Positions 26,405-56,998 of a DNA stretch of 64,000 bases are shown here, piece after piece (within the stretch, counting starts at the first letter, position 1; each line of letters opens with the position of its first letter). The notes beneath the pieces were generated by a model that saw only the letters and a program-made list of their open reading frames with translations, was not told where the DNA came from and ran no database searches. The translations under genes and the position numbers were made by a program. This stretch comes from a virus. The DNA is taken from IMG/VR virus record IMGVR_UViG_3300021373_003070; one strand, written 5' to 3'.

Positions 26405-26818
26405 ATGAGTAACGATTGGGCATCAGACATTCGATCTATGCATGACAAATATGGTGTACACGAATGGGTACAGGAAAATCCAGAAAAGCTACGTGAGTTC
26501 CTACAGTTCCGAATGAAGTTTATACAAGAGGAATTTAGCGAGACGCTCGAAGCAATCATCAATAATGATCCTGAAGAAATGGTCGACGGTCTTATTGATC
26601 TATGTGTTGTAGCTATCGGCACAATGGATGCATTTGGTATCGATGCTCATAAAGCGTGGAACGAGGTCTTCGCTGCCAACATGGCGAAAGAACGTGGTGT
26701 AAAAGAAACACGTCCTAATCCTCTCGGTCTACCAGATCTGATCAAGCCAGAAGGATGGCAAACACCATCACATGCCGGCAATCACGGCCTACTGGCTGAG
26801 ATGTCACGATCGGAATAA
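26405..26818 (+). CDS. All-alpha (MazG-like) nucleoside triphosphate pyrophosphohydrolase; candidate dCTPase
   Basis: EEFSE...EEMVDGLIDL..V acidic motif; V..ANM.K and DLIKPEGW..P. Confidence 0.75.
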   Translation: MSNDWASDIRSMHDKYGVHEWVQENPEKLREFLQFRMKFIQEEFSETLEAIINNDPEEMVDGLIDLCVVAIGTMDAFGIDAHKAWNEVFAANMAKERGVKETRPNPLGLPDLIKPEGWQTPSHAGNHGLLAEMSRSE

Positions 26819-26914: not shown

Positions 26915-27541
26915 ATGGCCTATTATTACGGCTCACTCAGAGACTCTCTGATCACAGAATGCCAGAACCAAGGCATGTCTCCATCTCATATCGAAAAGTA
27001 TGCCAAGTACTACATGGCAAAGCAGAGAGCTGCTCGAGGTGGCGGCCGTTCAAAGACTGGATATCAGGACTCCGATAAGACAAAAGTCTATCGTTCAGAG
27101 TGGGCATTTCAGTCAAAGGTTGACATCCGTCAATTCAAAGATATCGACGAAGCAACACAAAGATTCAAGCAAATCAAGAAGTCAAAGCTGTGGAGTCAGA
27201 TTGGTAAGCAATGCTATCTGATGGACAATCGCCGCATGGGTCGTGCTACTGCAGGTCGTGCACACGTTGGTGGTAAGATCGAGCTAGGTACAACAGGCAT
27301 GGATGAGTATACACTTATCCACGAAATGGCACATCAGACACATAACTCAATGCACCACGGTGTACAATTTCGTATCCACTTGTTAAAGTTAGTATCTAGA
27401 TTTATGGGACGAGAAGCACATGACATTCTCAAAGCAGAATTCAAAGAACGTAAGCTTAAGCTATCAATGCCTAAGCCACGTTCACCGGCTAGCTGGTTCA
27501 AATCATATCAACACATGCAAAAAGTAAGAGGTGAAGCATGA
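26915..27541 (+). CDS. Zincin-like (HExxH) protein
   Basis: LIHEMAH...HG..F motif. Confidence 0.65.
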   Translation: MAYYYGSLRDSLITECQNQGMSPSHIEKYAKYYMAKQRAARGGGRSKTGYQDSDKTKVYRSEWAFQSKVDIRQFKDIDEATQRFKQIKKSKLWSQIGKQCYLMDNRRMGRATAGRAHVGGKIELGTTGMDEYTLIHEMAHQTHNSMHHGVQFRIHLLKLVSRFMGREAHDILKAEFKERKLKLSMPKPRSPASWFKSYQHMQKVRGEA

Positions 27542-27879
27542 AAGAATCACTTAAAGTTTTACAAGAATGTGCTGAGGTACAAATCAAAAAGTCTAATGAC
27601 TATCAAAATGATTACTCTCGCATTCGTCAAGCAGACTACTATCCTCGTGGTGTAGCTACTATCACAGATCTCATCTATGCTAAAGTTCTTCGTATGCAAT
27701 CAGTCATCGAAGCTAGCGAACGTGATCCAGAATATACACCAAACTTCGAATCAATCGAAGATTCTGCTAAAGATCTAATCAACTATGCATCATTCGTTGT
27801 TGCATACATGCGTGGCCAAATGGATGGCCAAGAAACAAACCGTGACTTCCTTAATCGGGTGATTGATGATTCAGAATAA
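27538..27879 (+). CDS. Nucleotide-modification-associated domain protein (DUF1599/Nmad1-like)
   Basis: KKSNDY...K..R...ESIEDS..DLINYA pattern; adjacent to gp42. Confidence 0.65.
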   Translation: MKESLKVLQECAEVQIKKSNDYQNDYSRIRQADYYPRGVATITDLIYAKVLRMQSVIEASERDPEYTPNFESIEDSAKDLINYASFVVAYMRGQMDGQETNRDFLNRVIDDSE

Positions 27880-28543
27880 AGTACATGATATCCGTTCTTA
27901 TTTCAAAGAAGCTTTACACAAAGAACAATTCACAATTGACAAGACTGGTCAAAAGACTATCGAATTAATTGGTGCATCGTTTATTGCAGACGAGCCATCT
28001 ATCTTTGGTAGACCGGTTCAAAAGTATATCGATGCCGAGATCAATTGGTATATTTCTCAATCTACTAACATTCACGATATCTATGATGAAGGTAGAGCAC
28101 CACCTGAAGCTTGGAAGTATTCGGCAAATGAACACGGTGAGATCAACTCAAACTATGGCCATCTTATTTACAGTGAAAAGTATGGTAATCAATACCATCG
28201 TGTAATGCAAGAACTTCTCGCTCATCCGGATGGCCGACGTGCAACAATGATTTATAATCGTCCATCTATATGGAATGAATACAACGAGAATGGTAAGTCA
28301 GACTTTATTTGTACCAATGCTGTAACTTACTATGTACGTAATGGTAAACTCCACTGTGTGGTTCAGATGCGCTCTAACGATGTGGTTTTCGGTTACAAGA
28401 ATGACTATGCTTGGCAGAAATATATACTAGATATGTTGGCTTATGATATTTCTAGTCATCACACACAAATATTTTCTGGTGATATTATGTGGCAGGTTCA
28501 AAACCTTCACGTATACGAACGACACTTTAAATTGGTGGAATAA
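27863..28543 (+). CDS. gp42: dCMP hydroxymethylase (thymidylate synthase fold)
   Basis: Collinear with T4 gp42 as recalled: DKTG.KTIE.IGASF.ADEP.IFG, GEINSNYG, SDF.CTN (catalytic Cys), MRSNDVVFG..NDYAWQ with the dCMP-specifying Asp, LHVY.RHF. Confidence 0.9.
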   Translation: MMIQNKVHDIRSYFKEALHKEQFTIDKTGQKTIELIGASFIADEPSIFGRPVQKYIDAEINWYISQSTNIHDIYDEGRAPPEAWKYSANEHGEINSNYGHLIYSEKYGNQYHRVMQELLAHPDGRRATMIYNRPSIWNEYNENGKSDFICTNAVTYYVRNGKLHCVVQMRSNDVVFGYKNDYAWQKYILDMLAYDISSHHTQIFSGDIMWQVQNLHVYERHFKLVE

Positions 28544-29267: not shown

Positions 29268-29899
29268 GAGTTGCGTATTACGTCAATGGTAGTATACGTA
29301 AGGTAAATCAAAACAATTTGCCATACGATCCTATTGATGTGCATACAGATTTTGCCAATAAGATTGGTGCAGATCTCGGAATGTCAACATGGGAAGTAAG
29401 TAGTGATCCAAAATCAATATCGCTTCAAGAGCTCATGGAATTGCCATTTGAGAGAAGTAAACAGCCGCCGGGTTATTATCCGGATTTGTTCTGGCAACAT
29501 GTAAATTATTGTGAATGGGCGGCATGCAATTATGAAGTATATGACGTATTAGTCAGAGGTCGTTGGGATAATATTTACAATGAAGATAACATCGACCTGA
29601 TCAGTGAAAGCATTACGGCGTGTTATACTGATAGAATGGCGTTTGGATTTTGCAACAGTCGATATCGAGCATTAGATGAATCACTCAAAAATATCAATGA
29701 TCATGTGATTATTCATCCAGCTAAATCGTTTGATCCGGATTTTACCTCAAATTTCTTTCGTACATTCACCGGCGTATGGGAAGAAATGGGACCAGTAAGA
29801 CAAAGTCAGCATGCTGCATGTAAAGCTGAACATATATGGTGGTGGCTACTATGTGGTCGAACAAATTTACCTTACAAGAATATTAGATTATCTGAATGA
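29264..29899 (+). CDS. Hypothetical glycosyltransferase-like protein (YD..VRxRxD family)
   Basis: YDVLVRGRWD and NDHVII; shares motifs with the 58142 and 60887 ORFs. Confidence 0.5.
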   Translation: MRVAYYVNGSIRKVNQNNLPYDPIDVHTDFANKIGADLGMSTWEVSSDPKSISLQELMELPFERSKQPPGYYPDLFWQHVNYCEWAACNYEVYDVLVRGRWDNIYNEDNIDLISESITACYTDRMAFGFCNSRYRALDESLKNINDHVIIHPAKSFDPDFTSNFFRTFTGVWEEMGPVRQSQHAACKAEHIWWWLLCGRTNLPYKNIRLSE

Positions 29900-31065
29900 T
29901 TGAAACTACAAAATATTATGATGAATTCATAAGGTACTTCAACTTAGCCTATAAACAGCAAGAGCTATGTAATGTATCTGATAAAGAACCTTATGGCATG
30001 GTCGCACATAAGGATTCGAATCTCGGTGATGATCTCATGGAGAATGTTGAATTATATGATGTAGTCGAACGCAAATATGCAGGCTTTTCTCAGATCATAA
30101 ATGATTGTTTTTATGGATGGACAGAAGATCATCCATATTGGAAAAAGATGCAGGCGGGCTTGTGTACCCGTCAACGAGAGACCGTCGCCAAAGACTGGAC
30201 CGGTAAACAAGACGTATTCTCTCTTCCTGAATGGCTCTATGTTTTTATCCTTCATAGAGTCACCGGTTCAGCAATTAACTATGCCCAGAAACCATCTGGG
30301 TATTTTAACACCATCCTCTTCAATCTCCATCAGTGTGATACAATAGAAGAGATGGTGCAGCTGGCGAAGCACTACCCGGTACCCTTCTATACCTCAGTCG
30401 GTTACCAGTTCCCAGCGTTTCCAAAACCAGTCGGCGACTATAAGAAAGGCGGTGATTATTACCTCGGTGAATTTGCCCCTCGATTAGCTCGCGATCTCGC
30501 GGACCATTTGACGATGGGTCCTCGCAAGGACCTTCGCGAGATTGGTGAGTTTATGCTGAAGTGGAATGAAGACAATGGTCTTCGACGCTATCAGTTTCAA
30601 TACGCAGCTGTAGTCGCTGACGTCGCCGACTGGTTTCCTCAATACGTTAACCGTGAAAGCATGTTCTATTACGGTACAAATGCAGTAGAATGTATCTCTT
30701 ACTTGGCTAAACCTGTCAAGAAGATGAAAAAAGAGTTGTTCCTTGATGCCGTCATGACGAAAATATATGATGATACAGGAAGTGTACCATATAATGCTGA
30801 AGATGTATGTTGCGACTTCATTCGTTATGTTGAAAATTATGTTCGCCCTGGTCCGGAATATAATCATTTAGATTATGATAATCTGTGGTCGTCATGCGGC
30901 ATCAAGGATCACCCTTATGGAAGACAGAAATATATGTTGGATATGGGGTTGATAGAAACTTTTAATGGCATGAAAAATCATCCATCTGATGATGCAATTC
31001 TAAAAAATAATGAAATGACTGTTGAAGAGTACCAACGTAATGTCGCTAACTTACTTTCTAGGTGA
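29896..31065 (+). CDS. aGPT-PPlase1/5-HMUDK-like helical (HhH-glycosylase-fold) DNA-modification protein, copy 1
   Basis: F.YA.VVAD.......G.NA...I..L and a C-terminal N.EDVCCDF.RY resemble the family's E..LC.F.KY motif. Confidence 0.55.
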   Translation: MIETTKYYDEFIRYFNLAYKQQELCNVSDKEPYGMVAHKDSNLGDDLMENVELYDVVERKYAGFSQIINDCFYGWTEDHPYWKKMQAGLCTRQRETVAKDWTGKQDVFSLPEWLYVFILHRVTGSAINYAQKPSGYFNTILFNLHQCDTIEEMVQLAKHYPVPFYTSVGYQFPAFPKPVGDYKKGGDYYLGEFAPRLARDLADHLTMGPRKDLREIGEFMLKWNEDNGLRRYQFQYAAVVADVADWFPQYVNRESMFYYGTNAVECISYLAKPVKKMKKELFLDAVMTKIYDDTGSVPYNAEDVCCDFIRYVENYVRPGPEYNHLDYDNLWSSCGIKDHPYGRQKYMLDMGLIETFNGMKNHPSDDAILKNNEMTVEEYQRNVANLLSR

Positions 31066-32032
31066 ACACGAAAATGATATCCAATATCAGAACATTGCTG
31101 AGGTGGATTACAAAAACGGCAAACCTACGTCGTCGTGGTTAAAAGGTTGGTGTCAAGAAGCTCGAACTGAAAAGTTTTTCGAGTTCTGTCGTGGCTACGA
31201 TGCACGTCAAGACTTTTTACTAAAGAACAACTATCAACAATTCTCACATCGATTGCACTGGCACGAATGTCCTTTTGTTGACGAGATGGCACAAGAGAAA
31301 GACAGAGTCAAGGTACTCGAAGCATGCGTTCTCTTCTCATTTAGCAACGAGCATTGGCAAACATTCAGAGCATGGCGTGATCATGGTCAAGACGGTATGA
31401 GAGTAAGATTTACAAGCTATCGTCATGCTCGTAGCGATCTGTTTCAGATCTACTATCCAAAAGATACGAAGGTCAAAGACTGGCTCATCGAAGCGCCAGC
31501 TCGTATTGCACTTGAGCTCGATTCATTATTCGATGGCATGCGTAGACCGTTCACGATGATGGAATTTGCCAAAAAAATGAACATCATCATGGTCCGCGAT
31601 TTTGGTTTTCGTAATGCCATGTACCCGTCAAAGAATGCAGCGCGACATGTAGCGATGAGCCATCCTGAGTGGGTTGATCCTGACTCGTTCTTACATGGTG
31701 GTACAGGATACTTCGATGGTTTGTCGCAGATCTTTGACTGTCCACATCTTATGTCAAGATCAAAGTATGAGATTGATGAGGATGGTGAATACGTACCGAT
31801 GAATAAATGGGCAGAGATGCAGATCCAACACATGGACTATCTCAAAAATCATCCTAGCAATCCTATTCATACACATCAGTATCTCAACTTAGAAGACAAG
31901 CTATGTATGCATTACAAGTTTATGTCAATGAAGCTAGGTTCTAAAAAGCAAACAAAGATGATACCATATAACTGGGTGTATCCAGAGAATTGGTCTCTTA
32001 AAACAAATAGGTATGATCGTGGCACACAATAA
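31040..32032 (+). CDS. aGPT-PPlase1/5-HMUDK-like protein, copy 2
   Basis: D.LL..NY..F..R, P.WVDPDS...GTG...GL..IF, NLEDKLC...K; paralogous to the upstream ORF. Confidence 0.5.
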   Translation: MSLTYFLGEHENDIQYQNIAEVDYKNGKPTSSWLKGWCQEARTEKFFEFCRGYDARQDFLLKNNYQQFSHRLHWHECPFVDEMAQEKDRVKVLEACVLFSFSNEHWQTFRAWRDHGQDGMRVRFTSYRHARSDLFQIYYPKDTKVKDWLIEAPARIALELDSLFDGMRRPFTMMEFAKKMNIIMVRDFGFRNAMYPSKNAARHVAMSHPEWVDPDSFLHGGTGYFDGLSQIFDCPHLMSRSKYEIDEDGEYVPMNKWAEMQIQHMDYLKNHPSNPIHTHQYLNLEDKLCMHYKFMSMKLGSKKQTKMIPYNWVYPENWSLKTNRYDRGTQ

Positions 32033-32903
32033 TCATGTAATCGATGGCGTCAACAAAGACGTAGGAGTTTTTGGCTATGAAGCAGCAAAAGAATACTACT
32101 TATCTCTCACTGAAGGATGGGAACCATTCAATCCAGATCCCGTTGTCCGTGAACATGAAGGAGTACGGGTCGTTAGAGATGACCTTATCATGGGGACAAA
32201 ATCGCGAGCTGGCGATCTCCTTGCCTTCAAAGCCCCTGCCGAAACGTTGGTATACTGTCAGCCAAGGACTGGACTCGCTGGGGTATCGTTATTAGATGTA
32301 GCTAAACATCACAATCGTAAGGTTGTCTTGTTTATGCCATCATCAAAGAGAGTATCACATCATCAGGCATGTTGTATAGAACGTGGAGCAGAAGTGCATT
32401 TCCATCGTATTGCAGCGATGCCAAATCTTAACAAAAAGGCAAAAGAATATGCAGAAAAACATGGATACTTTTTCATCCCTCTTGGTCTTAGACACGAGTA
32501 CGCTACCGCCGCAATTGTACACGCAGCTAGTAAAATACCTGAGCCAGATGAAGTGTACGTTGCTACTTCGACTGGAGTTCTCAATCGCGCTCTTCAAATT
32601 GCATGGCCAAATGCTCGTATCAATGGTATTGCCGTCGCTCGTAACATGAAGGCCGGCGAGCTAGGTCGATCTACCATTACATCAGAACCTTTGCCATTCA
32701 TAAAAGCAGAGAAGAAAGAAAATCTACCACCGTTCCCGTCCATCGACACATATGATGGTAAGGTGTGGAAATACATTCCAAAAAATAGTGGTAAAAATAT
32801 ACTTTTTTGGAATGTAGGTACTGAACCTAGTTTACAAGATGATACAATCTATGATAGAATAGATTCATATCGCGATTGGGAGAAAAATAATGCATCAGCG
32901 TAG
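32013..32903 (+). CDS. Fold-type II PLP-dependent enzyme (ACC deaminase/D-Cys desulfhydrase-like)
   Basis: VRDDL..GTKSR (Schiff-base Lys), YFFIPLG, V..STGV phosphate loop, D.YDGK, LFWNVG. Confidence 0.8.
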   Translation: MIVAHNNHVIDGVNKDVGVFGYEAAKEYYLSLTEGWEPFNPDPVVREHEGVRVVRDDLIMGTKSRAGDLLAFKAPAETLVYCQPRTGLAGVSLLDVAKHHNRKVVLFMPSSKRVSHHQACCIERGAEVHFHRIAAMPNLNKKAKEYAEKHGYFFIPLGLRHEYATAAIVHAASKIPEPDEVYVATSTGVLNRALQIAWPNARINGIAVARNMKAGELGRSTITSEPLPFIKAEKKENLPPFPSIDTYDGKVWKYIPKNSGKNILFWNVGTEPSLQDDTIYDRIDSYRDWEKNNASA

Positions 32904-33993
32904 TGGATTAGTAGCAACACCTTTTATTACAATCTCACGCCAATTAAGTAGCCATAGAGCTGCGCAAGGTGTTATATATGCCGATCAATTACAAGAAGCT
33001 AACGTTGGCCAGATTAAAGTCAACATGACAGGGGACCAATACGAAAGTGAATTCAGTAATTATGATGACCTGTATGTATATCATGGCAATGATTGGAGTG
33101 GCAATATTAATCTTTTTGGCGGTCTCAATAATTTCCCTTATATTGAAAACTTTGTCAATTTCTCTAGATTTACTGGTAAAGTGTATTCCCTTGTTATTGA
33201 TATGCCTGATTATTATGGCCTTATGAAAGAGAAGTTCGACAAGGCTAAAGAAAAAGGCAAAGAATGGAATCCTTTATGGGATGGCATCGATTGGGATAAT
33301 CTCAAACGAATGTGTGAAACTGCCGAAACGATTGTGCCTAACGAACTACACAAATTTACAAAAATGTCTGTCGGTGATAGTCATGCAATATGCATGTATC
33401 GCCCGGGCTGGAACAATCTATCCGTACCATTCAAGACATTACACGGCGCATTGAAAGAAGGACTCGAATCATTTCTCGAAGATAGAACATATACACATCT
33501 AGAATTTTACTTTGGCAACATCGATGTAAGACATCACCTTTGTCGTCAAGATGATCCTGTAGCTGCCACACGACAACTCGTTGCAGAGTATATGAAGCAG
33601 GCTCATGCCATTGCACAGAAGTATAATTGCAAAATTCGTATCTACGAACTCCTGCCAATCGAAGCAGAAACACGATCTATTCCAAAAACTGGTTGGTATA
33701 AAGGTACGCCGTTCTATGGCTCTCGTCAAGAGAGAAATGATATTCGCAAGTTGTTCAAAGAAGAAGTAAGAAAGAGATGCACAGACGAGGTGCAACTTTA
33801 CGAGTGGATTGGTGAGATGGTTAACTCGAGAGGTGAACTCGATTTTGAGTTTATGGAACGACCTCAGTCAGTACATTTATCTCGTCGTTGGTATCCACAT
33901 TGGCAAGGCTATCAGTGGAGTCACGCTCCGTATGTTGAATATATACCTACAGCAGAGCGAGAAACAACTACACTTGAGGATTTTTTTAGCTAA
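32890..33993 (+). CDS. Two-domain protein: BGT-N-like domain fused to an SGNH-like domain
   Basis: N-terminal NYDDLYV...INLFGG...GKVYSLVID; C-terminal GDSH, FGNID, SVHL blocks. Confidence 0.5.
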   Translation: MHQRSGLVATPFITISRQLSSHRAAQGVIYADQLQEANVGQIKVNMTGDQYESEFSNYDDLYVYHGNDWSGNINLFGGLNNFPYIENFVNFSRFTGKVYSLVIDMPDYYGLMKEKFDKAKEKGKEWNPLWDGIDWDNLKRMCETAETIVPNELHKFTKMSVGDSHAICMYRPGWNNLSVPFKTLHGALKEGLESFLEDRTYTHLEFYFGNIDVRHHLCRQDDPVAATRQLVAEYMKQAHAIAQKYNCKIRIYELLPIEAETRSIPKTGWYKGTPFYGSRQERNDIRKLFKEEVRKRCTDEVQLYEWIGEMVNSRGELDFEFMERPQSVHLSRRWYPHWQGYQWSHAPYVEYIPTAERETTTLEDFFS

Positions 33994-35201
33994 TGAAGCA
34001 TGCGACTATTATTCCATTAATTGGAGGTGAAGTGCTCGCCTCCGAAAAGGTGTTCGGCCATAAGCCGGATTATATCCTATCATATAATGCGTTTCAAGCA
34101 AACGAAGAGCACCTACTAAATTATTGGAATCATGAGGTACCGTACTACGTACTCGACGAAGGGGATCGCCACCCCCATCCCGTAGACGTAGTGTCCAGTG
34201 TATGTCCTTGTGCTGGCTTGTCATTGTTCAGCACGCGTTATGGAGAGGACAACAAAAACAATCGCTGGATGATTGAAACGGCTAAGTACGTTCTTGGCGA
34301 GATCAAGCCTCTTGTATTTTGGGGAGAGAATGCCCCAACCTTCACCGGTAAAATCGGTGCACCAATTCGAAATCAACTTATCGAAGTTGGTAAAGAACAC
34401 GGTTATGTTATGTCAATGTTTAAGACAAAAAGTCTTTTGCACGGCATACCACAAACACGCGAACGTACATTCTACTTCTTCTGGAAAGGAGACAAGGTAC
34501 CAGTGTTTGACTACTATCGTAGAGACATGACATCAATCGAAGATCTTATACTGAGTGTCGATCGTGATCCTAAGGATCCGATGTCTGAAGTCATTAATAG
34601 AACCAAACCAACAGACAATCCTTTCTACAAATATTTACTTGAGGAGATTCACGGTGGAATATCTCATCGCGATCATTTTGATTCCATTGATGTGCGGGAC
34701 CCTTCAACTCCTAATTATCTTGATGTATATAGCCTCATTGAAAGCCATAAACACGACTACGTCCGTGTTGGAAAATGGCTGGAAAATAAAGGCTATGACC
34801 GCGAATCGAAGCGAGCTTATCGAATGTATGATAAGTTGGAGTCAGGTGGTAATATTATGCGCCGCGGCACTATTCTGCCTAAAGGTCATATCGGATCATT
34901 TGTAGGTCACTATCCTCAGATGCTAACACATCCACATGAAGATCGATACATTACATTTCGAGAAGCAATGACAATCATGGGTCTGCCTGAAGATTATCAG
35001 CTTCTCAATCCTCGTGGTAGCTTCAATCATATATGTCAGAATGTACCTTATCAGACAGCTGTAGATATGGCTACCGAAGTAAAGGCAGCAATCGAAGGTC
35101 AACGACCATGGGTTGATGCTAACGTTTCTTTGCAGCAAAACACATCTAAAAAGTTTGAAATTTTAGACAAAGAAGAATCTACACTTGAATCATTTTTCTA
35201 G
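33993..35201 (+). CDS. DNA cytosine-C5 methyltransferase-like protein with atypical motif I
   Basis: PCAGLS (IV), GENAP (VI), PQTRERTF (VIII), R.IT.REA..IMGLP (IX), QNVP (X); motif I reads IPLIGG instead of FxGxGG. Confidence 0.8.
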   Translation: MKHATIIPLIGGEVLASEKVFGHKPDYILSYNAFQANEEHLLNYWNHEVPYYVLDEGDRHPHPVDVVSSVCPCAGLSLFSTRYGEDNKNNRWMIETAKYVLGEIKPLVFWGENAPTFTGKIGAPIRNQLIEVGKEHGYVMSMFKTKSLLHGIPQTRERTFYFFWKGDKVPVFDYYRRDMTSIEDLILSVDRDPKDPMSEVINRTKPTDNPFYKYLLEEIHGGISHRDHFDSIDVRDPSTPNYLDVYSLIESHKHDYVRVGKWLENKGYDRESKRAYRMYDKLESGGNIMRRGTILPKGHIGSFVGHYPQMLTHPHEDRYITFREAMTIMGLPEDYQLLNPRGSFNHICQNVPYQTAVDMATEVKAAIEGQRPWVDANVSLQQNTSKKFEILDKEESTLESFF

Positions 35202-35259: not shown

Positions 35260-36237
35260 ATGGAAATCAATGTACCAGTCGAAGAACTTCGCCAATATAA
35301 GGTGATGATTGGCACACCAATGTACGGGGCTCAATGCTCAGGTATGTACACGCGATCGATGGCAGAGTTAACAACTACGATGCAGCGATATGGTGTTCCG
35401 ATGCAATTTTATTTCTTGTTCAATGAATCTCTTATTACTCGAGCACGTAACTATTGTGTTGATGAGTTTATGCGATCTGATTGCACGCATCTTATGTTCA
35501 TCGATTCTGACATCTCATTTAAAGCACAAGATGTACTATCGATGCTAGCTATTATGCATCAACGACAAGAAATGGATGTGTGTTGTGCACCATATCCGAA
35601 GAAGACAATTGCATGGGAAAAAATTACTCAGGCTGTCAAGAGTGGTGTCGCTGACGAAGATCCAAATGTCCTCGAAAATTTTGTTGGTGATTATGTCTTC
35701 AATCCAATCAGACCCAAAGAAAAGGGTGAACACTTTATCAAGTTATCAGAACCAACCGAAGTAGCAGAAGGTGGTACTGGTTTTATGATGATCAAGCGAG
35801 AAACGTTTGACAAGTATAAAGAAACATATCCACAATTTATGTATCGACCAGATCATGTTCGAACTGCACATTTTGATGGTTCAACAGAAATCATGGCATA
35901 TTTCGATGCATTGATTGATGATAAATCACAGAATCTAATACCTGAAATAAAAGCATTCTTTAAGAAGAATCCGAATGCTAAGAACAATGATGTCGTCAGG
36001 TTCCTTGAAGATAAGACAAAGGGTATCGATCAGAAGCAATACTCGAATCGATACCTGTCAGAAGATTACATGTTTTGTTATAATGTAAGACGTGCAGGAA
36101 TGAAAGTATTCATGTGTCCTTGGATGGAATTGAAACATATGGGTGCATACGTATTCGGTGGTTCTCTTGCAGCTCTCGCATCAGTTGGTGCAGCGGCTAC
36201 AGCGGATCCTGAAAAACTTGGAAAGAAAAAAGGATAA
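35260..36237 (+). CDS. GT-A fold glycosyltransferase
   Basis: TPMYG, ESLITRARN, LMFIDSD (DxD), GTGFMMI, YLSEDY.FC. Confidence 0.8.
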   Translation: MEINVPVEELRQYKVMIGTPMYGAQCSGMYTRSMAELTTTMQRYGVPMQFYFLFNESLITRARNYCVDEFMRSDCTHLMFIDSDISFKAQDVLSMLAIMHQRQEMDVCCAPYPKKTIAWEKITQAVKSGVADEDPNVLENFVGDYVFNPIRPKEKGEHFIKLSEPTEVAEGGTGFMMIKRETFDKYKETYPQFMYRPDHVRTAHFDGSTEIMAYFDALIDDKSQNLIPEIKAFFKKNPNAKNNDVVRFLEDKTKGIDQKQYSNRYLSEDYMFCYNVRRAGMKVFMCPWMELKHMGAYVFGGSLAALASVGAAATADPEKLGKKKG

Positions 36238-36245
36238 ATTATATT

Positions 36246-36899
36246 ATGAAACTCAACCAACGCTCGGTACAAATTCTCAAGAATTTTTCTACCATTAATC
36301 CGTCAATTCAGTTTCGAGAAGGTAATGCTCTCAAGACTATTTCGCCAAACAAAACCATTATGGCGAAAGCAGTTCTCGAAGATCAGATTCCACAAGACTT
36401 TGCAATCTATGACTTGTCGCGATTCTTAGGAGTGTCATCTTTGTTCGAAGATCCTGATTATGTACTCGCTGATCGCAATGTTGTGATTGCGGCACCGGGA
36501 CGACAGGTAAGTTATACTTTCGCTGATCCTAATACGATCGTGTCAGCTCCAAACAAAGACATTGATATTGGTGATGTCGATGTGCAGTTCGAACTGAAGC
36601 AAGAAGTATTTGCCGAAGTAATGAAAGCACTCGGTGTGATGAGCTTTCCTGAAGTTGTAGTTGCAGGCGAAAATGGTCGAATTGTTTTACGCGCAACTGA
36701 TACGAAGAATCCATCAGCAGATAAATATGACATTGAAGTTGGTGAAACAGATCTTGAATTCACCTCTGTCTTCAAATCCGAGAATCTCAAAATCTTATCT
36801 GGCAACTATGTTGTTGGTATCTCATCGAAAGGTATCTCACACTTCCGCGGTGATGATGTAGAATATTGGATCTCGATCGAATCGAACTCTGCTTTTTAA
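36246..36899 (+). CDS. gp45: Sliding clamp
   Basis: ILKNFSTINPSI, FAIYDLSRFL, ENLKI..G.Y. Confidence 0.95.
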   Translation: MKLNQRSVQILKNFSTINPSIQFREGNALKTISPNKTIMAKAVLEDQIPQDFAIYDLSRFLGVSSLFEDPDYVLADRNVVIAAPGRQVSYTFADPNTIVSAPNKDIDIGDVDVQFELKQEVFAEVMKALGVMSFPEVVVAGENGRIVLRATDTKNPSADKYDIEVGETDLEFTSVFKSENLKILSGNYVVGISSKGISHFRGDDVEYWISIESNSAF

Positions 36900-39657: not shown

Positions 39658-40596
39658 ATGAATGATGATTTTTTATGGGTAGAAAAGTATCGGCCACGTA
39701 CTGTCGCTGATACTATTCTACCAGTCCAACTTCAACAAACGTTTCAACAGTTCGTTGATGATGGTAATGTACCAAATCTTATCCTCACCGGTACTGCCGG
39801 TGTGGGTAAGACTACTATCGCAAAAGCCATGCTCGAGCAACTCGATTGCGATTACATCGTTATCAACGGTTCGATGAATGGCAATATCGATACACTTCGC
39901 AACGATATCATGTCGTTCGCATCATCGGTATCTCTTCAAGGTGGTCGTAAGTATGTGATCCTCGACGAGGCAGATTACCTTAATCCAAACTCAACTCAAC
40001 CAGCTCTTCGTAATTTCATGGAAGAGTTCTCCAAAAACTGTGGCTTCATCCTCACATGTAATTTCAAGAATAAGATCATCGATCCACTACATTCTAGATG
40101 TAGCGTTGTTGAGTTTAAGCTTGACAAAGAACAACGTATGGAATGTGCAGCACAGATGTTCAAGCGTACATGCACTATCCTTGATAGCGAGAACGTTGAT
40201 TATGACAAAGCAGTTGTTGTTGAAGTAGTCAAGAAACACTTCCCTGACAATCGTCGTATTCTCAACGAGCTACAACGATATTCTGCAACTGGTCGTGTCG
40301 ATACAGGCATTCTTACCAATTTGCAAGAAGTGACTCTCGACAATCTACTCAAATCTCTCAAAGAAAAAGACTATACCTCGGTTCGTAAGTGGGTAGCAGA
40401 CAACAGCGATGCTGATAATACTGTCATCTTTCGTCGACTGTATGACAAATGTTCAGACTTCATGGAAAGCGGTTCGATACCTCAGCTCGTTCTTATTCTC
40501 GCTGACTATCAATACAAGGCTGCATTCGTTGCTGACCATGAAATAAATATGACTGCATGTCTCACTGAAATTATGGCGAATTGCTCATTTAAATGA
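39658..40596 (+). CDS. gp44: Clamp loader ATPase subunit
   Basis: LWVEKYRP, GTAGVGKTT, ILDEAD, PLHSRC. Confidence 0.97.
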   Translation: MNDDFLWVEKYRPRTVADTILPVQLQQTFQQFVDDGNVPNLILTGTAGVGKTTIAKAMLEQLDCDYIVINGSMNGNIDTLRNDIMSFASSVSLQGGRKYVILDEADYLNPNSTQPALRNFMEEFSKNCGFILTCNFKNKIIDPLHSRCSVVEFKLDKEQRMECAAQMFKRTCTILDSENVDYDKAVVVEVVKKHFPDNRRILNELQRYSATGRVDTGILTNLQEVTLDNLLKSLKEKDYTSVRKWVADNSDADNTVIFRRLYDKCSDFMESGSIPQLVLILADYQYKAAFVADHEINMTACLTEIMANCSFK

Positions 40597-41114
40597 TTGT
40601 TGTTCCTAAGTTCCTCACTCTCGATACCTGTCTCAATATCACTCGTGAATTGGATGACAGGCTATTGAAAGAAGGAATGTGGAAAATTAACAAGAACAAC
40701 TGGGCAGATCATCTTACTCGAGGCTTTGACGGAGCTGTATATCTTGCAGATTTCAGAGACCACATGGCACAAGATGACAAAAAGATTTGTTGGAAAATAC
40801 AGAATAGTGGTTACTTCGATCGTAGGATCAATTGGCAAAAGACAAGATTGGTCATGCAAGTATGGGACACTGGCTCAGGTTGTAACTGGCACGCCGACAA
40901 TCATGTTGACTTTGCCTGTACCATTTATCTCAACGATAGATGGCAAGAGGAATGGGGTGGTCTGTTAAAATATAGACCGAAAGACGAAGACAAGTATGTC
41001 ATACCAGATACAGGTACAATGGTCATCAACACTGATCAAACCTACCATATGGTCACTGAACAGAAGGCTCCATTCTATCGATACACTTTGCAATGTTTTG
41101 GAACATACGAATGA
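40593..41114 (+). CDS. 2OG-Fe(II) oxygenase (prolyl-hydroxylase-like)
   Basis: WHAD...IYLN..W..EWGG.L...H.V...R..L. Confidence 0.85.
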   Translation: MIVVPKFLTLDTCLNITRELDDRLLKEGMWKINKNNWADHLTRGFDGAVYLADFRDHMAQDDKKICWKIQNSGYFDRRINWQKTRLVMQVWDTGSGCNWHADNHVDFACTIYLNDRWQEEWGGLLKYRPKDEDKYVIPDTGTMVINTDQTYHMVTEQKAPFYRYTLQCFGTYE

Positions 41115-54445: not shown

Positions 54446-56998
54446 ATGACTAAATTTTATACTAATATCGATCAGCACGGTTCGCAGATACTCGTACGTG
54501 GCTATAATGAAGATGGCACACCTTTTCAACATAAAGAGAGATACGAACCTTATTTGTTTATGCGATCTCAGGTTGAGACCGGTTACACAGATATTTATGG
54601 TAATCATGTCAAACGCATGGACTTTCCTAACATCGGCGAAGCCAAGCAGTTTCGCAAGAAATACGAAGACGTTGAAGGTGTAGACATCTACGGTCTTGAA
54701 CGATATAAGTGTGTCTATATTTATGACAACTTTCGAAATCAAGTACCTGATACATCACGTATCAACATTGTCAACATAGATATCGAGGTTGCATCCGATG
54801 ATGGTTTTCCAGAACCTGAAGATGCCGACAAAGAAGTAACAGCCATTGGCTTACGAGATCGTACTAAAACAGTTGTGCTTGGTTGTGGTGAATTTAAACA
54901 TGACGATCCTAATACCTACTACGTAAAGTGTAAGAACGAGATTGAGCTACTCGATAAGTTCTTGAACATATGGCAGCATATGAATCCTGACGTAGTCACA
55001 GGTTGGAACACAGAATTCTTTGATATTCCATATCTTGTCCATCGCATTGCAAAGTGTGGTGCACTTGGCGAAGAAGCACTTAAAAGATTTTCTCCATGGA
55101 ATCTGCCACTACGTAAAGGTAGTGTGTTTCGGCCTGGCAGCGACAAAGCTTCAACGACATATCGCATCATCGGTGTAGCAAGTCTTGATTATCTGTCAAT
55201 CTACAAAAAGTTTAGATTGCAACCGCGTGAATCATACAAGCTCGATTTCATTGCCGAGACAGAACTTGGTACCAAAAAGATTGACTATAGCGAGTATGGC
55301 AATCTACACGAGTTGTACAAAAACAACTATCAAAAGTTTATCGAATACAACATTCGAGATATTGATCTGATCTTTGATCTCGAAGAAAAGCTAGGTTTCA
55401 TCGAACAAGTATTTACTGTCGCATATGATGCTGGCGTCAACTATGAAGACACGCTCGGTTCGGTAGGCATATGGGATGTGATTATTCACAACTATCTCAT
55501 GGACCAAAACATTGCGGTGTCAGACAAAGTCAACGCCATATCAGATAGACAGATCGAAGGTGGTTACGTCAAAGAACCAATCGTTGGCATGCACAAGTGG
55601 GTGATGTCATTTGACCTCAACTCGCTGTATCCTCACTTAATTCAACAATACAACATATCACCTGATACAGGTCTCAATAAGTTTGACGACCTCTTTCATA
55701 TTACTTCGCGTGCATCAGTCGACAATATCTTATCAGAAGAAATTGACTTTAGCGAATTAAAATCTTACAACGTAACCATGACACCGAATGGCAAGATCTA
55801 TCGACGTGATCGTCAAGGCTTCTTACCTGCATTGATGAAGAAGATGTATGATGATCGTGTATTGTACAAGAAGAAGATGTTGGAATGCAAACAAGAAGCA
55901 ATCAAGAATCCAAGCCGACAACTTGAGATTGACATCTCTCGCTATCACAACTTACAACACGCCAAAAAGATTCAGCTAAACTCAGCTTATGGTGCACTTG
56001 CCAACAAATACTTCAGATGGTTCGATAACGAGAATGCCGAGGCTATCACCATGGCTGGTCAGTTGTCTATTCGTTGGATCGAAAAGAAGATCAACATATG
56101 GTTGAATGACATACTCAAAACCAAAGGTCGTGACTACGTCATAGCGATCGATACCGATTCAGTATATGTGTCATTCGATAAGATGATCGAACTTACCAAT
56201 CCAAAGAATCCTGTTGAATTTCTTGACAAGGTGGCACAGCAACAAGTCGAACCATTCATCGATAAGTCTTATCGTGAGCTAGCCGATTATCTCAATGCAT
56301 ATGATCAGAAGATGATTATGAAACGAGAAAACATCGCTGATAAGGCAATCTGGACTGCCAAGAAGCGATACATCATGAACGTATGGGACTCTGAAGGTGT
56401 ACGATACGAAAAGCCAGATCTCAAGATGATGGGTATCGAGGCCATTCGATCAAGTACACCAGCGGTATGTCGTGATTACATTAAGAATACGTTGCAGCTT
56501 ATCATGTCAACCAGTGAAGCTGATGTGCAAAAATATATTGCTCACATTCGCGAAGAGTTCCGCACATTACCATTCGAAAAAGTTGCATTCCCTCGATCAT
56601 GTAACTTCGTAAAGTGGCAAACAAACTCACATACAGGTCAGCGATATCCATCTACATATGCTGATGATAAGACAATCTACAAGAAAGCAACACCTATTCA
56701 AGTCAAAGGTGCTCTACTATACAACTGGTACTTACATAAATATAACTTGACAAAGAAGTATGAACTCATAAAATCAGGCGAGAAAATTAAGTTTTGTTAT
56801 CTACGAAAACCAAACTCATTTCGAGATTCGGTTGTTTCGTGTCCTGATATTTTGCCATCGGAGTTTGGCTTGGAACAGTATATCGATTACGATACACAAT
56901 TCGTAAAAGGTTATCTCGATCCAATTGAAATCATACTACATGCAATCGGTTGGAAGTCTGAAAAGATTTCTACATTGGAGGACTTTTTCAGTGACTAA
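54446..56998 (+). CDS. gp43: Family B DNA polymerase
   Basis: DIEV (exo I), SFDLNSLYP, KIQLNSAYG, IDTDS, KKRY; uninterrupted. Confidence 0.98.
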   Translation: MTKFYTNIDQHGSQILVRGYNEDGTPFQHKERYEPYLFMRSQVETGYTDIYGNHVKRMDFPNIGEAKQFRKKYEDVEGVDIYGLERYKCVYIYDNFRNQVPDTSRINIVNIDIEVASDDGFPEPEDADKEVTAIGLRDRTKTVVLGCGEFKHDDPNTYYVKCKNEIELLDKFLNIWQHMNPDVVTGWNTEFFDIPYLVHRIAKCGALGEEALKRFSPWNLPLRKGSVFRPGSDKASTTYRIIGVASLDYLSIYKKFRLQPRESYKLDFIAETELGTKKIDYSEYGNLHELYKNNYQKFIEYNIRDIDLIFDLEEKLGFIEQVFTVAYDAGVNYEDTLGSVGIWDVIIHNYLMDQNIAVSDKVNAISDRQIEGGYVKEPIVGMHKWVMSFDLNSLYPHLIQQYNISPDTGLNKFDDLFHITSRASVDNILSEEIDFSELKSYNVTMTPNGKIYRRDRQGFLPALMKKMYDDRVLYKKKMLECKQEAIKNPSRQLEIDISRYHNLQHAKKIQLNSAYGALANKYFRWFDNENAEAITMAGQLSIRWIEKKINIWLNDILKTKGRDYVIAIDTDSVYVSFDKMIELTNPKNPVEFLDKVAQQQVEPFIDKSYRELADYLNAYDQKMIMKRENIADKAIWTAKKRYIMNVWDSEGVRYEKPDLKMMGIEAIRSSTPAVCRDYIKNTLQLIMSTSEADVQKYIAHIREEFRTLPFEKVAFPRSCNFVKWQTNSHTGQRYPSTYADDKTIYKKATPIQVKGALLYNWYLHKYNLTKKYELIKSGEKIKFCYLRKPNSFRDSVVSCPDILPSEFGLEQYIDYDTQFVKGYLDPIEIILHAIGWKSEKISTLEDFFSD

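What the first reader, a model, noticed from the sequence alone, without database searches (positions are those of the whole stretch)
32890..33993. T4 beta-glucosyltransferase acceptor domain fused to an SGNH domain: possible hmC-DNA acyltransferase
Seen: the N-terminal segment NYDDLYVYHGNDWSGNINLFGG...FSRFTGKVYSLVIDMP aligns by eye with T4 BGT NDYDRLIVVNSSINFFGG...FMAKYKSKIYYLFTDIR (recalled), including the Asp matching catalytic D100. The C-terminal half lacks BGT's UDP-glucose domain and instead has SGNH-like blocks (GDSH, G, GNID, SVH). Established: the BGT N-domain binds the flipped hmC, and SGNH domains can act as O-acyltransferases (PatB, OatA, AlgX). Inference: a base-flipping enzyme that acylates or deacylates hmC.
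Basis: inference. Interest (0 to 1): 0.8.

Follow-up and report, generated by a model that had tools for sequence, protein, structure and literature searches.

The report
Glucosyltransferase half fused to esterase-type enzyme
A marine T4-like phage gene encodes an undescribed, widespread enzyme that joins the DNA-side half of T4's beta-glucosyltransferase to a serine esterase/acyltransferase domain and ends in the DNA polymerase's clamp-docking peptide, so it most likely helps build a still unknown, non-sugar decoration on the hydroxymethylcytosine of the phage DNA.

Summary
ORF 32890-33993 (+, 367 aa) is real and belongs to a large uncharacterised phage family.

- **N-terminal domain.** Residues 1-150 are homologous to the N-terminal domain of T4 beta-glucosyltransferase (BGT). 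A family-against-family profile comparison gives probability 97.4%, E 1e-11. BGT is also the top structural match among 48,161 chains (Z 7.5).
- **C-terminal domain.** Residues about 150-345 have an SGNH fold (Z 14.6). GDSH and His329 are essentially invariant.
- **One detail fails.** The Asp matching BGT's D100 is kept in only 21% of relatives.
- **Tail.** The protein ends in TLEDFFS, the tail of this phage's own DNA polymerase and a relative of T4's gp45-binding SLDFLF.
- **Context.** The gene sits in a conserved operon with:
  - a gp42-type dCMP hydroxymethylase (51% identical to T4 gp42);
  - a Cys/Glu-motif partner protein ("u389"), which is fused to the target family in some genomes;
  - a PLP enzyme homologous to phage M6 gp52, a decarboxylase that acts on DNA adducts.
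- **No kinase.** No P-loop kinase of the 5-hmdU DNA kinase type was found.

Best reading: a clamp-tethered enzyme that acts on hydroxymethylcytosine (hmC) in DNA within a kinase-free hypermodification pathway, possibly O-acylating hmC to create a leaving group. The chemistry is inferred, not shown.

The scan has found this family before on other DNA (e1-5725156, e1-5725169, e1-5320537, e1-5741660). My independent tests agree with those reports.

The parts
32890..33993 (+). Target ORF, 367 aa, a two-domain enzyme with a C-terminal tail. Its start overlaps the end of the PLP gene by 14 nt, and its stop overlaps the start of the next gene.
32890..33339 (+). N-terminal domain (residues 1-150), homologous to the N-terminal domain of T4 beta-glucosyltransferase.
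32950..32955 (+). S21-H22 at the start of helix 1. It is 96% conserved in 91 diverse relatives and is not shared with BGT.
   Evidence: alignment
33109..33123 (+). N74-L-F-G-G78 loop. It aligns with the BGT family invariants N70, G73 and G74. N74 is 99% conserved and G78 98%.
33199..33201 (+). D104, aligned with BGT catalytic D100, but conserved in only 21% of relatives.
33340..33924 (+). SGNH-fold domain (residues about 151-345).
33373..33384 (+). Block I G-D-S164-H, the putative nucleophile Ser. It is 100% conserved.
33514..33537 (+). Block III variant G209-N-I-D212, followed by the invariant R214-H215-H216.
33652..33735 (+). Conserved basic/aromatic loop 255-282 (E258, R262, P265, G268, G277, R282) with low model confidence. 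It is a candidate lid or DNA-contact loop; this role is inferred.
33856..33876 (+). Block V equivalent, E323-R-P-Q-S-V-H329. His329 is 99% conserved and E323 100%. There is no Asp at position -3.
33925..33990 (+). Variable low-confidence linker followed by the terminal peptide TLEDFFS (33970-33990), a putative gp45 clamp-binding motif.
27863..28543 (+). gp42-type dCMP hydroxymethylase, 51% identical to T4 gp42, with the same RSNDVVFG motif.
26405..26818 (+). PRA-PH/MazG-type NTP pyrophosphohydrolase, conserved at the head of the module.
27538..27879 (+). DUF1599 (nucleotide modification associated domain 1)-like protein. The Pfam score is just below the cut-off.
29896..31065 (+). u389, the obligate partner of the target. 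It has a conserved PY..ED..C motif and is naturally fused to the target family in some genomes. Its relation to HMUDK_hel/ADDT is a lead only.
31022..32032 (+). u336, a variably present second protein with an ED..C-type motif.
32013..32903 (+). Fold-type II PLP enzyme, homologous to M6 gp52 (PLP decarboxylase of thymidine hypermodification). Its nearest solved relatives are cysteine synthases.
33993..35201 (+). C5-methyltransferase-like protein that carries the same tail (STLESFF). It is present in only part of the related loci.
35260..36237 (+). GT-A-like protein (phrog_1574). It is frequent in the related loci but is not part of the minimal module.
36246..36899 (+). gp45 sliding clamp, the presumed docking partner of the tail.
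54446..56998 (+). Family B DNA polymerase (gp43) ending in STLEDFFSD, the reference clamp-binding tail of this phage.

Best explanation
The gene encodes a two-domain enzyme that acts on DNA.

Anatomy:
- The first ~150 residues descend from the N-terminal half of T4 beta-glucosyltransferase. In that GT-B enzyme this half forms one wall of the cleft where the hydroxymethylcytosine (hmC) of DNA is presented.
- BGT's catalytic carboxylates have been lost. The invariant N-x-F-G-G loop is kept.
- BGT's UDP-glucose half is replaced by an SGNH domain with an invariant Ser164 (GDSH) and His329. This is the machinery that forms an acyl-enzyme.
- A flexible linker ends in TLEDFFS, the same peptide that ends this phage's DNA polymerase. 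The peptide is a relative of T4's gp45-binding SLDFLF.

Proposed action:
- The enzyme is carried on the sliding clamp behind the replication fork.
- It works on hmC, which is supplied by the neighbouring gp42-type dCMP hydroxymethylase.
- It works together with its obligate, sometimes fused, partner u389 (a protein with a Cys/Glu motif).
- A PLP enzyme homologous to the DNA-adduct decarboxylase M6 gp52 acts afterwards.

Favoured step:
- Ser164 picks up an acyl group and transfers it to the 5-CH2OH of hmC. This makes a carboxylate leaving group.
- That is the job done by the P-loop 5-hmdU DNA kinase in thymidine hypermodification. No such kinase was found here.
- u389 then installs an amino-acid-type nucleophile, and the PLP enzyme trims it.

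Shown: the domain homologies, conservation, tail identity, synteny, fusions and PLP homology.

Inferred: clamp binding, DNA/hmC as substrate, acyl transfer, and the order of steps.

Odds:
- About 0.75 that it is a DNA-directed enzyme of an hmC hypermodification pathway.
- About 0.3 that its step is the O-acyl activation of hmC.
For: Architecture:
- The full model has pLDDT 90 and pTM 0.87.
- The N-domain is homologous to BGT: probability 97.4%, E 1e-11; top structural hit Z 7.5; PF09198 hit weakly by 22 of 40 members.
- The C-domain is SGNH: Z 14.6.
- Catalytic-type residues are invariant in 91 representatives that share at most 50% identity.

Tail:
- Only three ORFs of the window end in TLE[DS]FF: the target, the C5-MTase-like neighbour and the DNA polymerase.
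- The same three genes are the only real genes with the strict motif in a 163.7-kb related genome.
- The motif is kept in 73 of 78 target homologues despite variable linkers, and in none of 56 GT homologues.
- In 4 of 5 related genomes the target tail resembles that genome's own polymerase tail.
- T4 gp43 and gp55 end in SLDFLF/Y.
- T4 alpha-GT is known to bind gp45 (PMC13216743).

Context:
- 26 long loci keep the order mazG, DUF1599, gp42-like, u389, (u336), PLP, target, (MTase), GT, gp45.
- Distant members keep gp42-like, target, u389 and PLP in another order.
- 48 of 48 loci seeded with u389 contain the target.
- The u389 profile hits the C-terminal halves of proteins whose N-terminal halves belong to the target family: P0256, P0252 and P0232, E 8e-54 to 6e-30.
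- Other fusions carry Pfam HMUDK_hel: P0170 at 4.5e-11, and Aeromonas phage ORF233c weakly.
- The PLP family matches M6 gp52 with probability 95.7%, E 9e-9. M6 gp52 is a PLP decarboxylase acting on DNA adducts (PMC8989533).
- The gp42-like protein is 51% identical to T4 gp42.
- Aeromonas phages 44RR/31/25 carry genes 42 and 56 but no glucosyltransferases (PMC2993671), and they carry the fused family member.

No kinase:
- There are no PF18723 or PF18724 hits in five related near-complete genomes.
- The target has no Walker A motif.
Against: - No biochemical datum exists. The substrate, the acyl donor and the product are unknown.
- Block III is non-canonical (G-N-I-D; N210 is 79% conserved), and block V lacks the usual Asp at -3. 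The chemistry may therefore differ from classic SGNH acyl transfer.
- Many invariant Arg and His residues (R214, H215, H216, R219, R262, R282) could point to a phosphorylated ligand rather than an acyl donor.
- The N-domain HMM did not reach BGT directly in 1.84 billion proteins. Homology rests on profile-profile and fold evidence.
- The kinship of u389 to aGPT-Pplase/ADDT is only a lead. It comes from the protein atlas. hhalign against M6 gp51 and gp55 was not significant.
- Tenacibaculum phage PTm1 and a 359-kb jumbo contig have a family member without a detectable u389. 44RR2.8t has no PLP homologue.
- The related loci are phylogenetically close, so the synteny counts are not independent events.
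Confidence: 0.55

Rival explanations
1. It is a late tailoring enzyme. The SGNH domain adds or removes an O-acyl group on something already attached to hmC, such as a sugar put on by the neighbouring GT-A-like protein or the amino-acid adduct, rather than activating hmC itself.
For: The closest structural matches are carbohydrate and sialate O-acetylesterases and the peptidoglycan O-acetyltransferases PatB and OatA. A GT-A-like gene follows in most T4-like loci.
Against: The GT is absent from the minimal module of distant members, whereas the target, u389 and the PLP enzyme persist. The target is fused to u389-type and HMUDK_hel-type proteins, not to the GT. Without the target, no activating enzyme is found in the module.
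Confidence: 0.2
2. The protein is a stand-alone hmC O-acyltransferase or deacylase, and the acylated (or de-acylated) hmC is the final mark in virion DNA.
For: The architecture is consistent: a BGT-type acceptor domain plus a Ser-His domain. The fused Aeromonas phage form occurs without a PLP homologue.
Against: The target co-occurs obligately with u389 and nearly always with the M6 gp52-like PLP enzyme, and it is fused to u389 in some genomes. An ester on a benzylic-type CH2 is a good leaving group and would be a chemically labile end product; this rests on general chemistry and is an inference.
Confidence: 0.1
3. It is an ordinary SGNH esterase or lipase working on a non-DNA substrate, such as the host envelope, lipids or a small metabolite, and it merely lies among replication genes.
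For: SGNH domains are common in phage tail and lysis proteins (rows 6-49).
Against: It has a polymerase-type C-terminal tail shared only with the polymerase and a DNA-methyltransferase-like protein. Its N-domain is homologous to a DNA glucosyltransferase. The operon is conserved and translationally coupled with a dCMP hydroxymethylase and a homologue of a DNA-adduct PLP enzyme. No signal peptide or tail-protein context was seen.
Confidence: 0.07
4. The SGNH domain is a non-catalytic nucleic-acid-binding module, as in the OSK domain of Oskar, and the protein only recruits or positions u389 on DNA.
For: The Oskar OSK domain is among the structural matches (5a4a, Z 11.0). The domain carries many conserved basic residues.
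Against: GDSH, His329 and E323 are 99-100% conserved across 91 diverse relatives. That degree of conservation is not expected for a domain that has lost catalysis.
Confidence: 0.04

Closest known systems
T4 beta-glucosyltransferase (BGT; Pfam PF09198 T4-Gluco-transf; PDB 1c3j, 1qkj)
   Same: The N-terminal Rossmann-like domain is homologous (probability 97.4%, E 1e-11; Z 7.5, top structural hit). The invariant N-x-F-G-G loop is shared. Both belong to T4-like phages that make hmC with a gp42-type enzyme.
   Different: The whole UDP-glucose-binding C-terminal domain is missing and is replaced by an SGNH domain. BGT's invariant D100 and near-invariant E22 are not conserved. The target carries a clamp-binding tail, whereas T4 BGT does not bind gp45 (PMC13216743). 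It does not reach Pfam's threshold.
SGNH/GDSL hydrolases and O-acyltransferases (PAF-AH, sialate O-acetylesterase, PatB, OatA)
   Same: The fold matches (Z up to 14.6). The Ser of GDS sits after strand 1, a Gly-Asn-x-Asp block follows strand 3, and a C-terminal His is present.
   Different: No sequence-level match reaches any SGNH Pfam threshold. Block III is shifted (G-N-I-D) and there is no Asp at His-3. An extra invariant R-H-H and an Arg cluster are present. The context is cytoplasmic and replication-linked, and the domain is fused to a DNA glucosyltransferase half.
Thymidine hypermodification pathways of phages M6, ViI and PaMx11 (5-HMUDK kinase, aGPT-Pplase2/amino acid:DNA transferase, PLP decarboxylase; PMC8989533)
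   Same: The logic matches: a hydroxymethylpyrimidine made at the nucleotide level is then processed after replication by a small enzyme set. The PLP enzyme is homologous to M6 gp52. The partner protein has a conserved Cys with neighbouring acidic residues. Some fusions of the target family carry HMUDK_hel.
   Different: The base is cytosine (a gp42-type enzyme with Asp), not thymine. No P-loop kinase and no Pfam-recognisable ADDT are present. The BGT-N/SGNH protein stands where the kinase would be. Clamp-binding tails are present.
T4 alpha-glucosyltransferase binding to the gp45 clamp
   Same: It is a DNA-modifying enzyme of a T4-like phage coupled to the sliding clamp, so that modification follows replication.
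   Different: Here the coupling would go through a copy of the polymerase's C-terminal peptide. The enzyme is not a glycosyltransferase.

Membership tests
T4 beta-glucosyltransferase family (PF09198, GT-B) | N-terminal Rossmann-like domain homologous to that of BGT | tested here: met
   hhalign of family against family gives 97.4%, E 1e-11. BGT 1c3j is the top hit among 48,161 chains, Z 7.5. 22 of 40 members give weak PF09198 hits.
T4 beta-glucosyltransferase family (PF09198, GT-B) | C-terminal UDP-glucose-binding Rossmann domain (BGT invariants G188, R191, R269, E272) | tested here: not met
   Only residues 20-118 align to BGT in the full-length comparison. Residues 150-354 fold as SGNH.
T4 beta-glucosyltransferase family (PF09198, GT-B) | Catalytic carboxylates D100 and E22 (invariant and near-invariant in the BGT family) | tested here: not met
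   The aligned D104 is conserved in 21% and Q26 in 15% of 91 relatives.
T4 beta-glucosyltransferase family (PF09198, GT-B) | Score above Pfam's gathering threshold | tested here: not met
   The window protein gives no Pfam hit at E 0.1. The best family member reaches E 0.0012.
SGNH hydrolase superfamily | Three-layer alpha/beta/alpha SGNH fold | tested here: met
   Z 14.6, rmsd 2.9 A over 169 residues to 2hsj, with more than 40 SGNH entries at Z above 9.5. Foldseek gives probability 1.00.
SGNH hydrolase superfamily | Block I GDS with the nucleophile Ser directly after strand 1 | tested here: met
   G162-D-S164-H is 100% conserved and follows strand 158-162.
SGNH hydrolase superfamily | Block II Gly and block III GxND Asn (oxyanion hole) | tested here: inconclusive
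   G186 is 90% conserved. Block III reads G209-N210-I-D212, with N210 at 79% (Ser in 16%) and D212 at 99%. The register differs from the canonical G-x-N-D. The local alignment to E. coli TesA puts the blocks in canonical order but is not significant.
SGNH hydrolase superfamily | Block V DxxH (His base with Asp) | tested here: inconclusive
   His329 is 99% conserved. There is no Asp at -3. An invariant E323 lies at -6.
SGNH hydrolase superfamily | Ser and His side chains within hydrogen-bonding reach | not testable with these tools
gp45 sliding-clamp clients (C-terminal clamp-binding peptide, as in T4 gp43 and gp55) | Extreme C-terminal hydrophobic peptide of the SLDFLF type on a flexible linker, matching the phage's own polymerase tail | tested here: met
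   The target ends in TLEDFFS and the polymerase in STLEDFFSD. T4 gp43 ends in SLDFLFG and gp55 in SLDFLYEAND. The motif is kept in 73 of 78 homologues. pLDDT falls to 58-79 over residues 341-367.
gp45 sliding-clamp clients (C-terminal clamp-binding peptide, as in T4 gp43 and gp55) | Physical binding to gp45 | not testable with these tools
5-hmdU DNA kinase (5-HMUDK) | P-loop kinase domain | tested here: not met
   The target has no Walker A motif and its fold is SGNH. It may work like the activating enzyme, but it is not a member of this family.

The most novel reading that the evidence does not exclude
The SGNH domain O-acylates the 5-hydroxymethyl group of cytosine in double-stranded DNA while riding on the sliding clamp. 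This would be an acyl-based, kinase-independent way to activate a DNA base for nucleophilic substitution. Together with u389 and the gp52-like PLP enzyme, it would produce a chemically undescribed aminoalkyl-type cytosine hypermodification that is widespread in marine T4-like phages and present in cultured Aeromonas phages.
Probability: 0.3. Interest if true: 0.85.

Novelty: new variant of a known kind. Interest (0 to 1): 0.75.

Why it matters
Phage DNA hypermodifications decide which restriction, CRISPR and glycosylase defences work against a phage. They also supply enzymes used for epigenetic sequencing.

All characterised non-sugar pyrimidine hypermodifications start from hydroxymethyluracil and need a DNA kinase. 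This module would extend that chemistry to hydroxymethylcytosine. It would use a new kind of DNA enzyme (half a glucosyltransferase plus an SGNH acyl-enzyme domain) and no kinase.

It would also explain an open question from 2010: what Aeromonas phages 44RR, 31 and 25 do with their hmC, given that they have no glucosyltransferases (PMC2993671).

The family is abundant. It has about 1,000 clusters at 90% identity, and 161 representatives at 50% identity match the N-domain profile. Near-identical DNA occurs in seawater metagenomes of at least two studies.

Reuse of the polymerase's clamp peptide by modification enzymes is a simple, testable mechanism for modifying DNA as it is replicated.

Tried and rejected
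Searches that found nothing:
- Pfam, NCBIfam and PADLOC-independent naming. Pfam gave no family at E 0.1 and NCBIfam none at E 0.05 for the target. PHROGs gave only 'unknown function' families 13881 and 17781.
- A family profile against all PDB sequences gave no hit at E 10.
- Megablast of the 6.3-kb cluster against cultured phages gave no match.
- tblastn of u389 against cultured phages gave no match.

Tests that did not reach significance:
- The N-domain HMM against 1.84 billion representatives gave 161 hits. Every full-length hit also carries the SGNH domain, and none is a BGT. HMM-level search alone therefore does not bridge to BGT.
- hhalign of the C-domain against E. coli TesA was not significant, although the blocks line up in canonical order.
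- u389 against u336, against M6 gp51 and gp55, and against the HMUDK_hel parts of P0170 and P0152 was not significant. I therefore do not call u389 an aGPT-Pplase.
- Pairwise BLAST of u389 with the fusion proteins was uninformative.
- Pfam HMUDK_hel and ADDT gave no hit in five related genomes.

Tools that could not be used:
- No whole genome is held for the window.

Other:
- Sequencing runs: no RNA holder is listed. Nothing can be said about expression.
- Literature: no paper combines SGNH with beta-glucosyltransferase or with DNA hypermodification in a relevant way.
- A search for relatives of the 740-aa fusion P0256 in viral contigs found none.
Full report
**What is there.** ORF 32890-33993 (+) encodes 367 aa. 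It lies in a T4-like myophage segment containing:
- tail sheath and gp23;
- UvsW, gp47 and gp46;
- gp45 and gp44;
- RegA;
- a family B DNA polymerase.

The gene is translationally coupled to both neighbours. It overlaps the upstream PLP gene by 14 nt, and its stop overlaps the start of the downstream gene. Near-identical DNA is held by seawater and marine metagenome runs of at least two studies besides the probable source.

**The family.** The protein belongs to a large, unnamed family.
- A search found 977 clusters at E <= 1e-3, with no name better than 'hypothetical protein'.
- PHROGs places it in families 13881 and 17781, both 'unknown function'.
- Pfam and NCBIfam have no model.
- BFVD relatives are all 'Uncharacterized protein'.
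- Among cultured phages, only the Aeromonas T4-like phages (44RR2.8t, 31, 25 and their kin), Stenotrophomonas IME13 and Tenacibaculum PTm1/PTm5 have relatives, at about 30% identity.

**Check of the observation: N-terminal domain.** The AlphaFold model of the whole protein is confident (pLDDT 90.1, pTM 0.87). The N-domain alone gives pLDDT 93.5. Four independent lines tie residues about 4-150 to the N-terminal domain of T4 beta-glucosyltransferase:
1. VIA-align against 48,161 representative chains ranks BGT 1c3j_A first: Z 7.5, rmsd 2.8 A, 110 residues, model 4-152 against BGT 1-138. The next hit has Z 5.9.
2. Foldseek lists BGT 1qkj with by far the best TM-score, 0.56, at probability 0.99.
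3. 22 of 40 family members give sub-threshold hits to Pfam PF09198. No other Pfam family is hit by more than one member.
4. hhalign of the family N-domain against T4 BGT gives 76%. Against a 28-member BGT family alignment it gives 97.4%, E 1e-11, over 92 columns, target 20-118 = BGT 16-114.

Only this part of the two proteins aligns. The shared core includes the BGT family invariants N70, G73 and G74. These correspond to N74, G77 and G78 of the target family, conserved at 99%, 88% and 98% in 91 diverse relatives.

BGT E22 corresponds to Q26 here, conserved in 15% of relatives, with Trp the commonest. The glycosyl-transfer residues are therefore gone, while the scaffold and one invariant loop are kept. 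A plain HMM of the N-domain did not reach BGT in 1.84 billion proteins. Every full-length hit also carries the C-domain described next, so the two domains are an obligate pair.

**Check of the observation: C-terminal domain.** Residues about 150-354 are an SGNH fold.
- The best match is Z 14.6, rmsd 2.9 A over 169 residues, to 2hsj.
- Sialate O-acetylesterase scores Z 13.0 and PAF acetylhydrolase Z 12.9.
- PatB scores Z 10.6 and OatA Z 9.7, with dozens of other GDSL entries in between.
- Foldseek gives E 4e-6.

Conservation across 91 representatives that share at most 50% identity:

| Residue(s) | Conservation |
|---|---|
| G162-D-S164-H165 | 100% |
| T183 | 99% |
| G186 | 90% |
| G209 | 98% |
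| N210 | 79% (Ser in 16%) |
| D212 | 99% |
| R214 | 97% |
| H215 | 92% |
| H216 | 99% |
| R219 | 96% |
| E258 | 90% |
| R262 | 99% |
| R282 | 99% |
| E323 | 100% |
| H329 | 99% |

- Ser164 follows strand 158-162, and the G-N-I-D block follows strand 203-207, as in canonical SGNH enzymes.
- The block III register (G-N-x-D instead of G-x-N-D) and the lack of an Asp three residues before the His are departures from the canon.
- I could not measure the Ser-His distance, because model coordinates are not exposed.

**The tail.** The last residues, TLEDFFS, follow a linker of variable length and falling confidence: pLDDT is 79, 77 and 58 over the last three blocks.
- A scan of all window ORFs finds this ending in three proteins only: the target, the C5-methyltransferase-like neighbour (STLESFF) and the 850-aa protein at 54446-56998 (STLEDFFSD). 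The last is the family B DNA polymerase.
- In a related 163.7-kb genome, the same three genes are the only real genes with the strict motif among 897 ORFs.
- The motif is kept in 73 of 78 target homologues and 18 of 23 methyltransferase homologues. It is absent from all 56 GT homologues.
- In 4 of 5 related genomes, the target tail resembles that genome's polymerase tail.
- T4 gp43 ends in SLDFLFG and gp55 in SLDFLYEAND. From established knowledge of T4, these are the peptides known to dock on the gp45 clamp.
- T4 alpha-glucosyltransferase binds gp45 and beta-GT does not (PMC13216743), so a clamp-coupled DNA-modifying enzyme has a precedent.
- Binding itself is inferred. The complex predictor was closed.

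**Context.**
- In 26 long related loci the order is: PRA-PH/MazG pyrophosphatase, DUF1599-like, gp42-like, u389, (u336), PLP enzyme, target, (C5-MTase-like), GT-A-like, gp45, gp44.
- Distant members (30-40% identity to an already distant query) keep MazG, DUF1599-like, gp42-like, target, u389 and PLP in another order, without the GT or gp45.
- The core is therefore hydroxymethylase plus target plus u389 plus PLP.
- Seeding from u389 instead, 48 of 48 loci with enough flank contain the target and 46 of 48 contain the PLP enzyme. These loci are close relatives, so the counts are not independent.
- The hydroxymethylase is 51% identical to T4 gp42 (E 2e-79) and shares its RSNDVVFG motif. The precursor base is therefore very probably 5-hydroxymethyl-dC.

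**Fusions.**
- The u389 profile matches the C-terminal halves of three proteins whose N-terminal halves are target-family: P0256 (740 aa), P0252 (759 aa) and P0232 (693 aa), with E 8e-54 to 6e-30.
- Two other fusions carry Pfam HMUDK_hel, the helical domain of the 5-hmdU DNA kinase. These are P0170 (E 4.5e-11) and, weakly (0.0036), the 795-aa Aeromonas phage protein ORF233c. The two are homologous to each other in that part.
- u389 has an invariant PY..E-D-x-x-C-D..R motif. This recalls the conserved Cys and neighbouring Glu of the amino acid:DNA transferases (PMC8989533).
- The kinship of u389 to those families is only a lead. It comes from the protein atlas, and hhalign did not confirm it.

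**The PLP enzyme.**
- Its family is homologous to M6 gp52 (probability 95.7%, E 9e-9, 194 columns). The paper shows M6 gp52 to be the PLP-dependent decarboxylase acting on the amino-acid adduct in DNA (PMC8989533, Table 1).
- Its nearest solved relatives are cysteine synthases, at weak scores (E 1.4e-3).
- This ties the operon to post-replicative hypermodification of DNA with an amino acid.

**How it most likely works.**
- In the thymidine pathways, a P-loop kinase phosphorylates 5-hmdU in DNA. An amino acid:DNA transferase then displaces the phosphate through a C6-thiol adduct, and a PLP enzyme trims the product (PMC8989533).
- Here no kinase is found. The target has no Walker A motif, and five related near-complete genomes give no HMUDK_hel or ADDT hits.
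- The protein that occupies the kinase's place, next to or fused with the u389/HMUDK_hel-type module, is the BGT-N/SGNH enzyme.
- The most economical reading is as follows:
  - the BGT-derived domain presents hmC of freshly replicated DNA;
  - the SGNH Ser-His site transfers an acyl group onto the 5-CH2OH, giving a leaving group;
  - u389 performs the substitution;
  - the PLP enzyme finishes the adduct.
- The homologies, conservation, synteny and fusions are shown. Substrate, donor, order of steps and clamp binding are inferred.
- I put about 0.75 on 'DNA-directed enzyme of an hmC hypermodification pathway' and about 0.3 on the specific activation step.
- The rivals are a later tailoring O-acyl transferase or esterase (about 0.2), acyl-hmC as the end product (about 0.1), a non-DNA esterase (about 0.07) and a non-catalytic module (about 0.04).

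**Caveats.**
- The Arg/His-rich invariant set could bind a phosphorylated ligand.
- The SGNH blocks are non-canonical.
- PTm1 and a jumbo contig carry a family member without a detectable u389.
- 44RR2.8t has the gp42-like gene but no PLP homologue, so the end product probably differs between lineages.

**Comparison with what is known, and novelty.**
- The protein is not a member of the BGT family. It lacks the donor domain and the catalytic carboxylates, and it scores below threshold.
- It is an atypical member of the SGNH superfamily by fold.
- No paper in the library links SGNH domains with beta-glucosyltransferase or with DNA hypermodification.
- PMC2993671 notes that Aeromonas phages 44RR, 31 and 25 have genes 42 and 56 but no glucosyltransferases, and that it is unknown whether they modify hmC otherwise. 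The fused family member in exactly these phages is a candidate answer, and it gives a cultured system in which to test it.
- The scan has met this family before on other DNA, with the same verdicts. My tail, fusion and homology tests were run independently on this window and agree.

Noticed in passing
window 33993-35201 (+): The C5-cytosine methyltransferase-like protein (PF00145, E 1e-15) carries the same clamp-type tail (STLESFF). It is present in only part of the related loci (17 distinct homologues in 26 long loci). What it does in a genome that presumably has hmC instead of C is unexplained.
   Followed up: partly
related loci, PLP homologues: A few PLP-enzyme homologues end in TNTATLASFQ or TTNTATLSGF, a tail resembling the clamp motif. 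The docking peptide may move between enzymes of the pathway in different lineages.
   Followed up: no
L001 (Aeromonas phage 44RR2.8t) 4399-8379: The fused 795-aa family member ORF233c ends in CSLDGLFAI. The polymerase of that phage ends in NNLFDMFDI. ORF233c lies directly after a phage-encoded sodium:solute symporter-family gene.
   Followed up: partly
L069 / G005: One related genome has a target homologue that ends in WNDSQTK without the tail, although its polymerase keeps VTLEQFFT. This could be a truncation, a frameshift or a true loss.
   Followed up: no
window 40593-41114 (+): A 2OG-Fe(II) oxygenase (PF13640, E 1e-8) lies directly after the clamp loader gene gp44. Its substrate is unknown.
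   Followed up: no
proteins P0135 (896 aa) and P0149 (566 aa): Two database proteins match short pieces of the N-domain profile 17 and 10 times over (profile positions 103-139 and 46-87). They look like repeats or assembly artefacts and have no SGNH domain.
   Followed up: no
window 35260-36237 (+): The GT-A-like protein (phrog_1574, weak Glyco_transf_21 hit) has a conserved basic C-terminus (…KLGKKK) in 56 homologues. It is frequent in the T4-like loci but absent from the minimal module of distant members.
   Followed up: partly
L104 / G006, a 359,550-bp viral contig: A jumbo-phage contig holds a distant family member with none of the usual partners within 10 kb and no u389 detectable anywhere in the contig.
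   Followed up: partly
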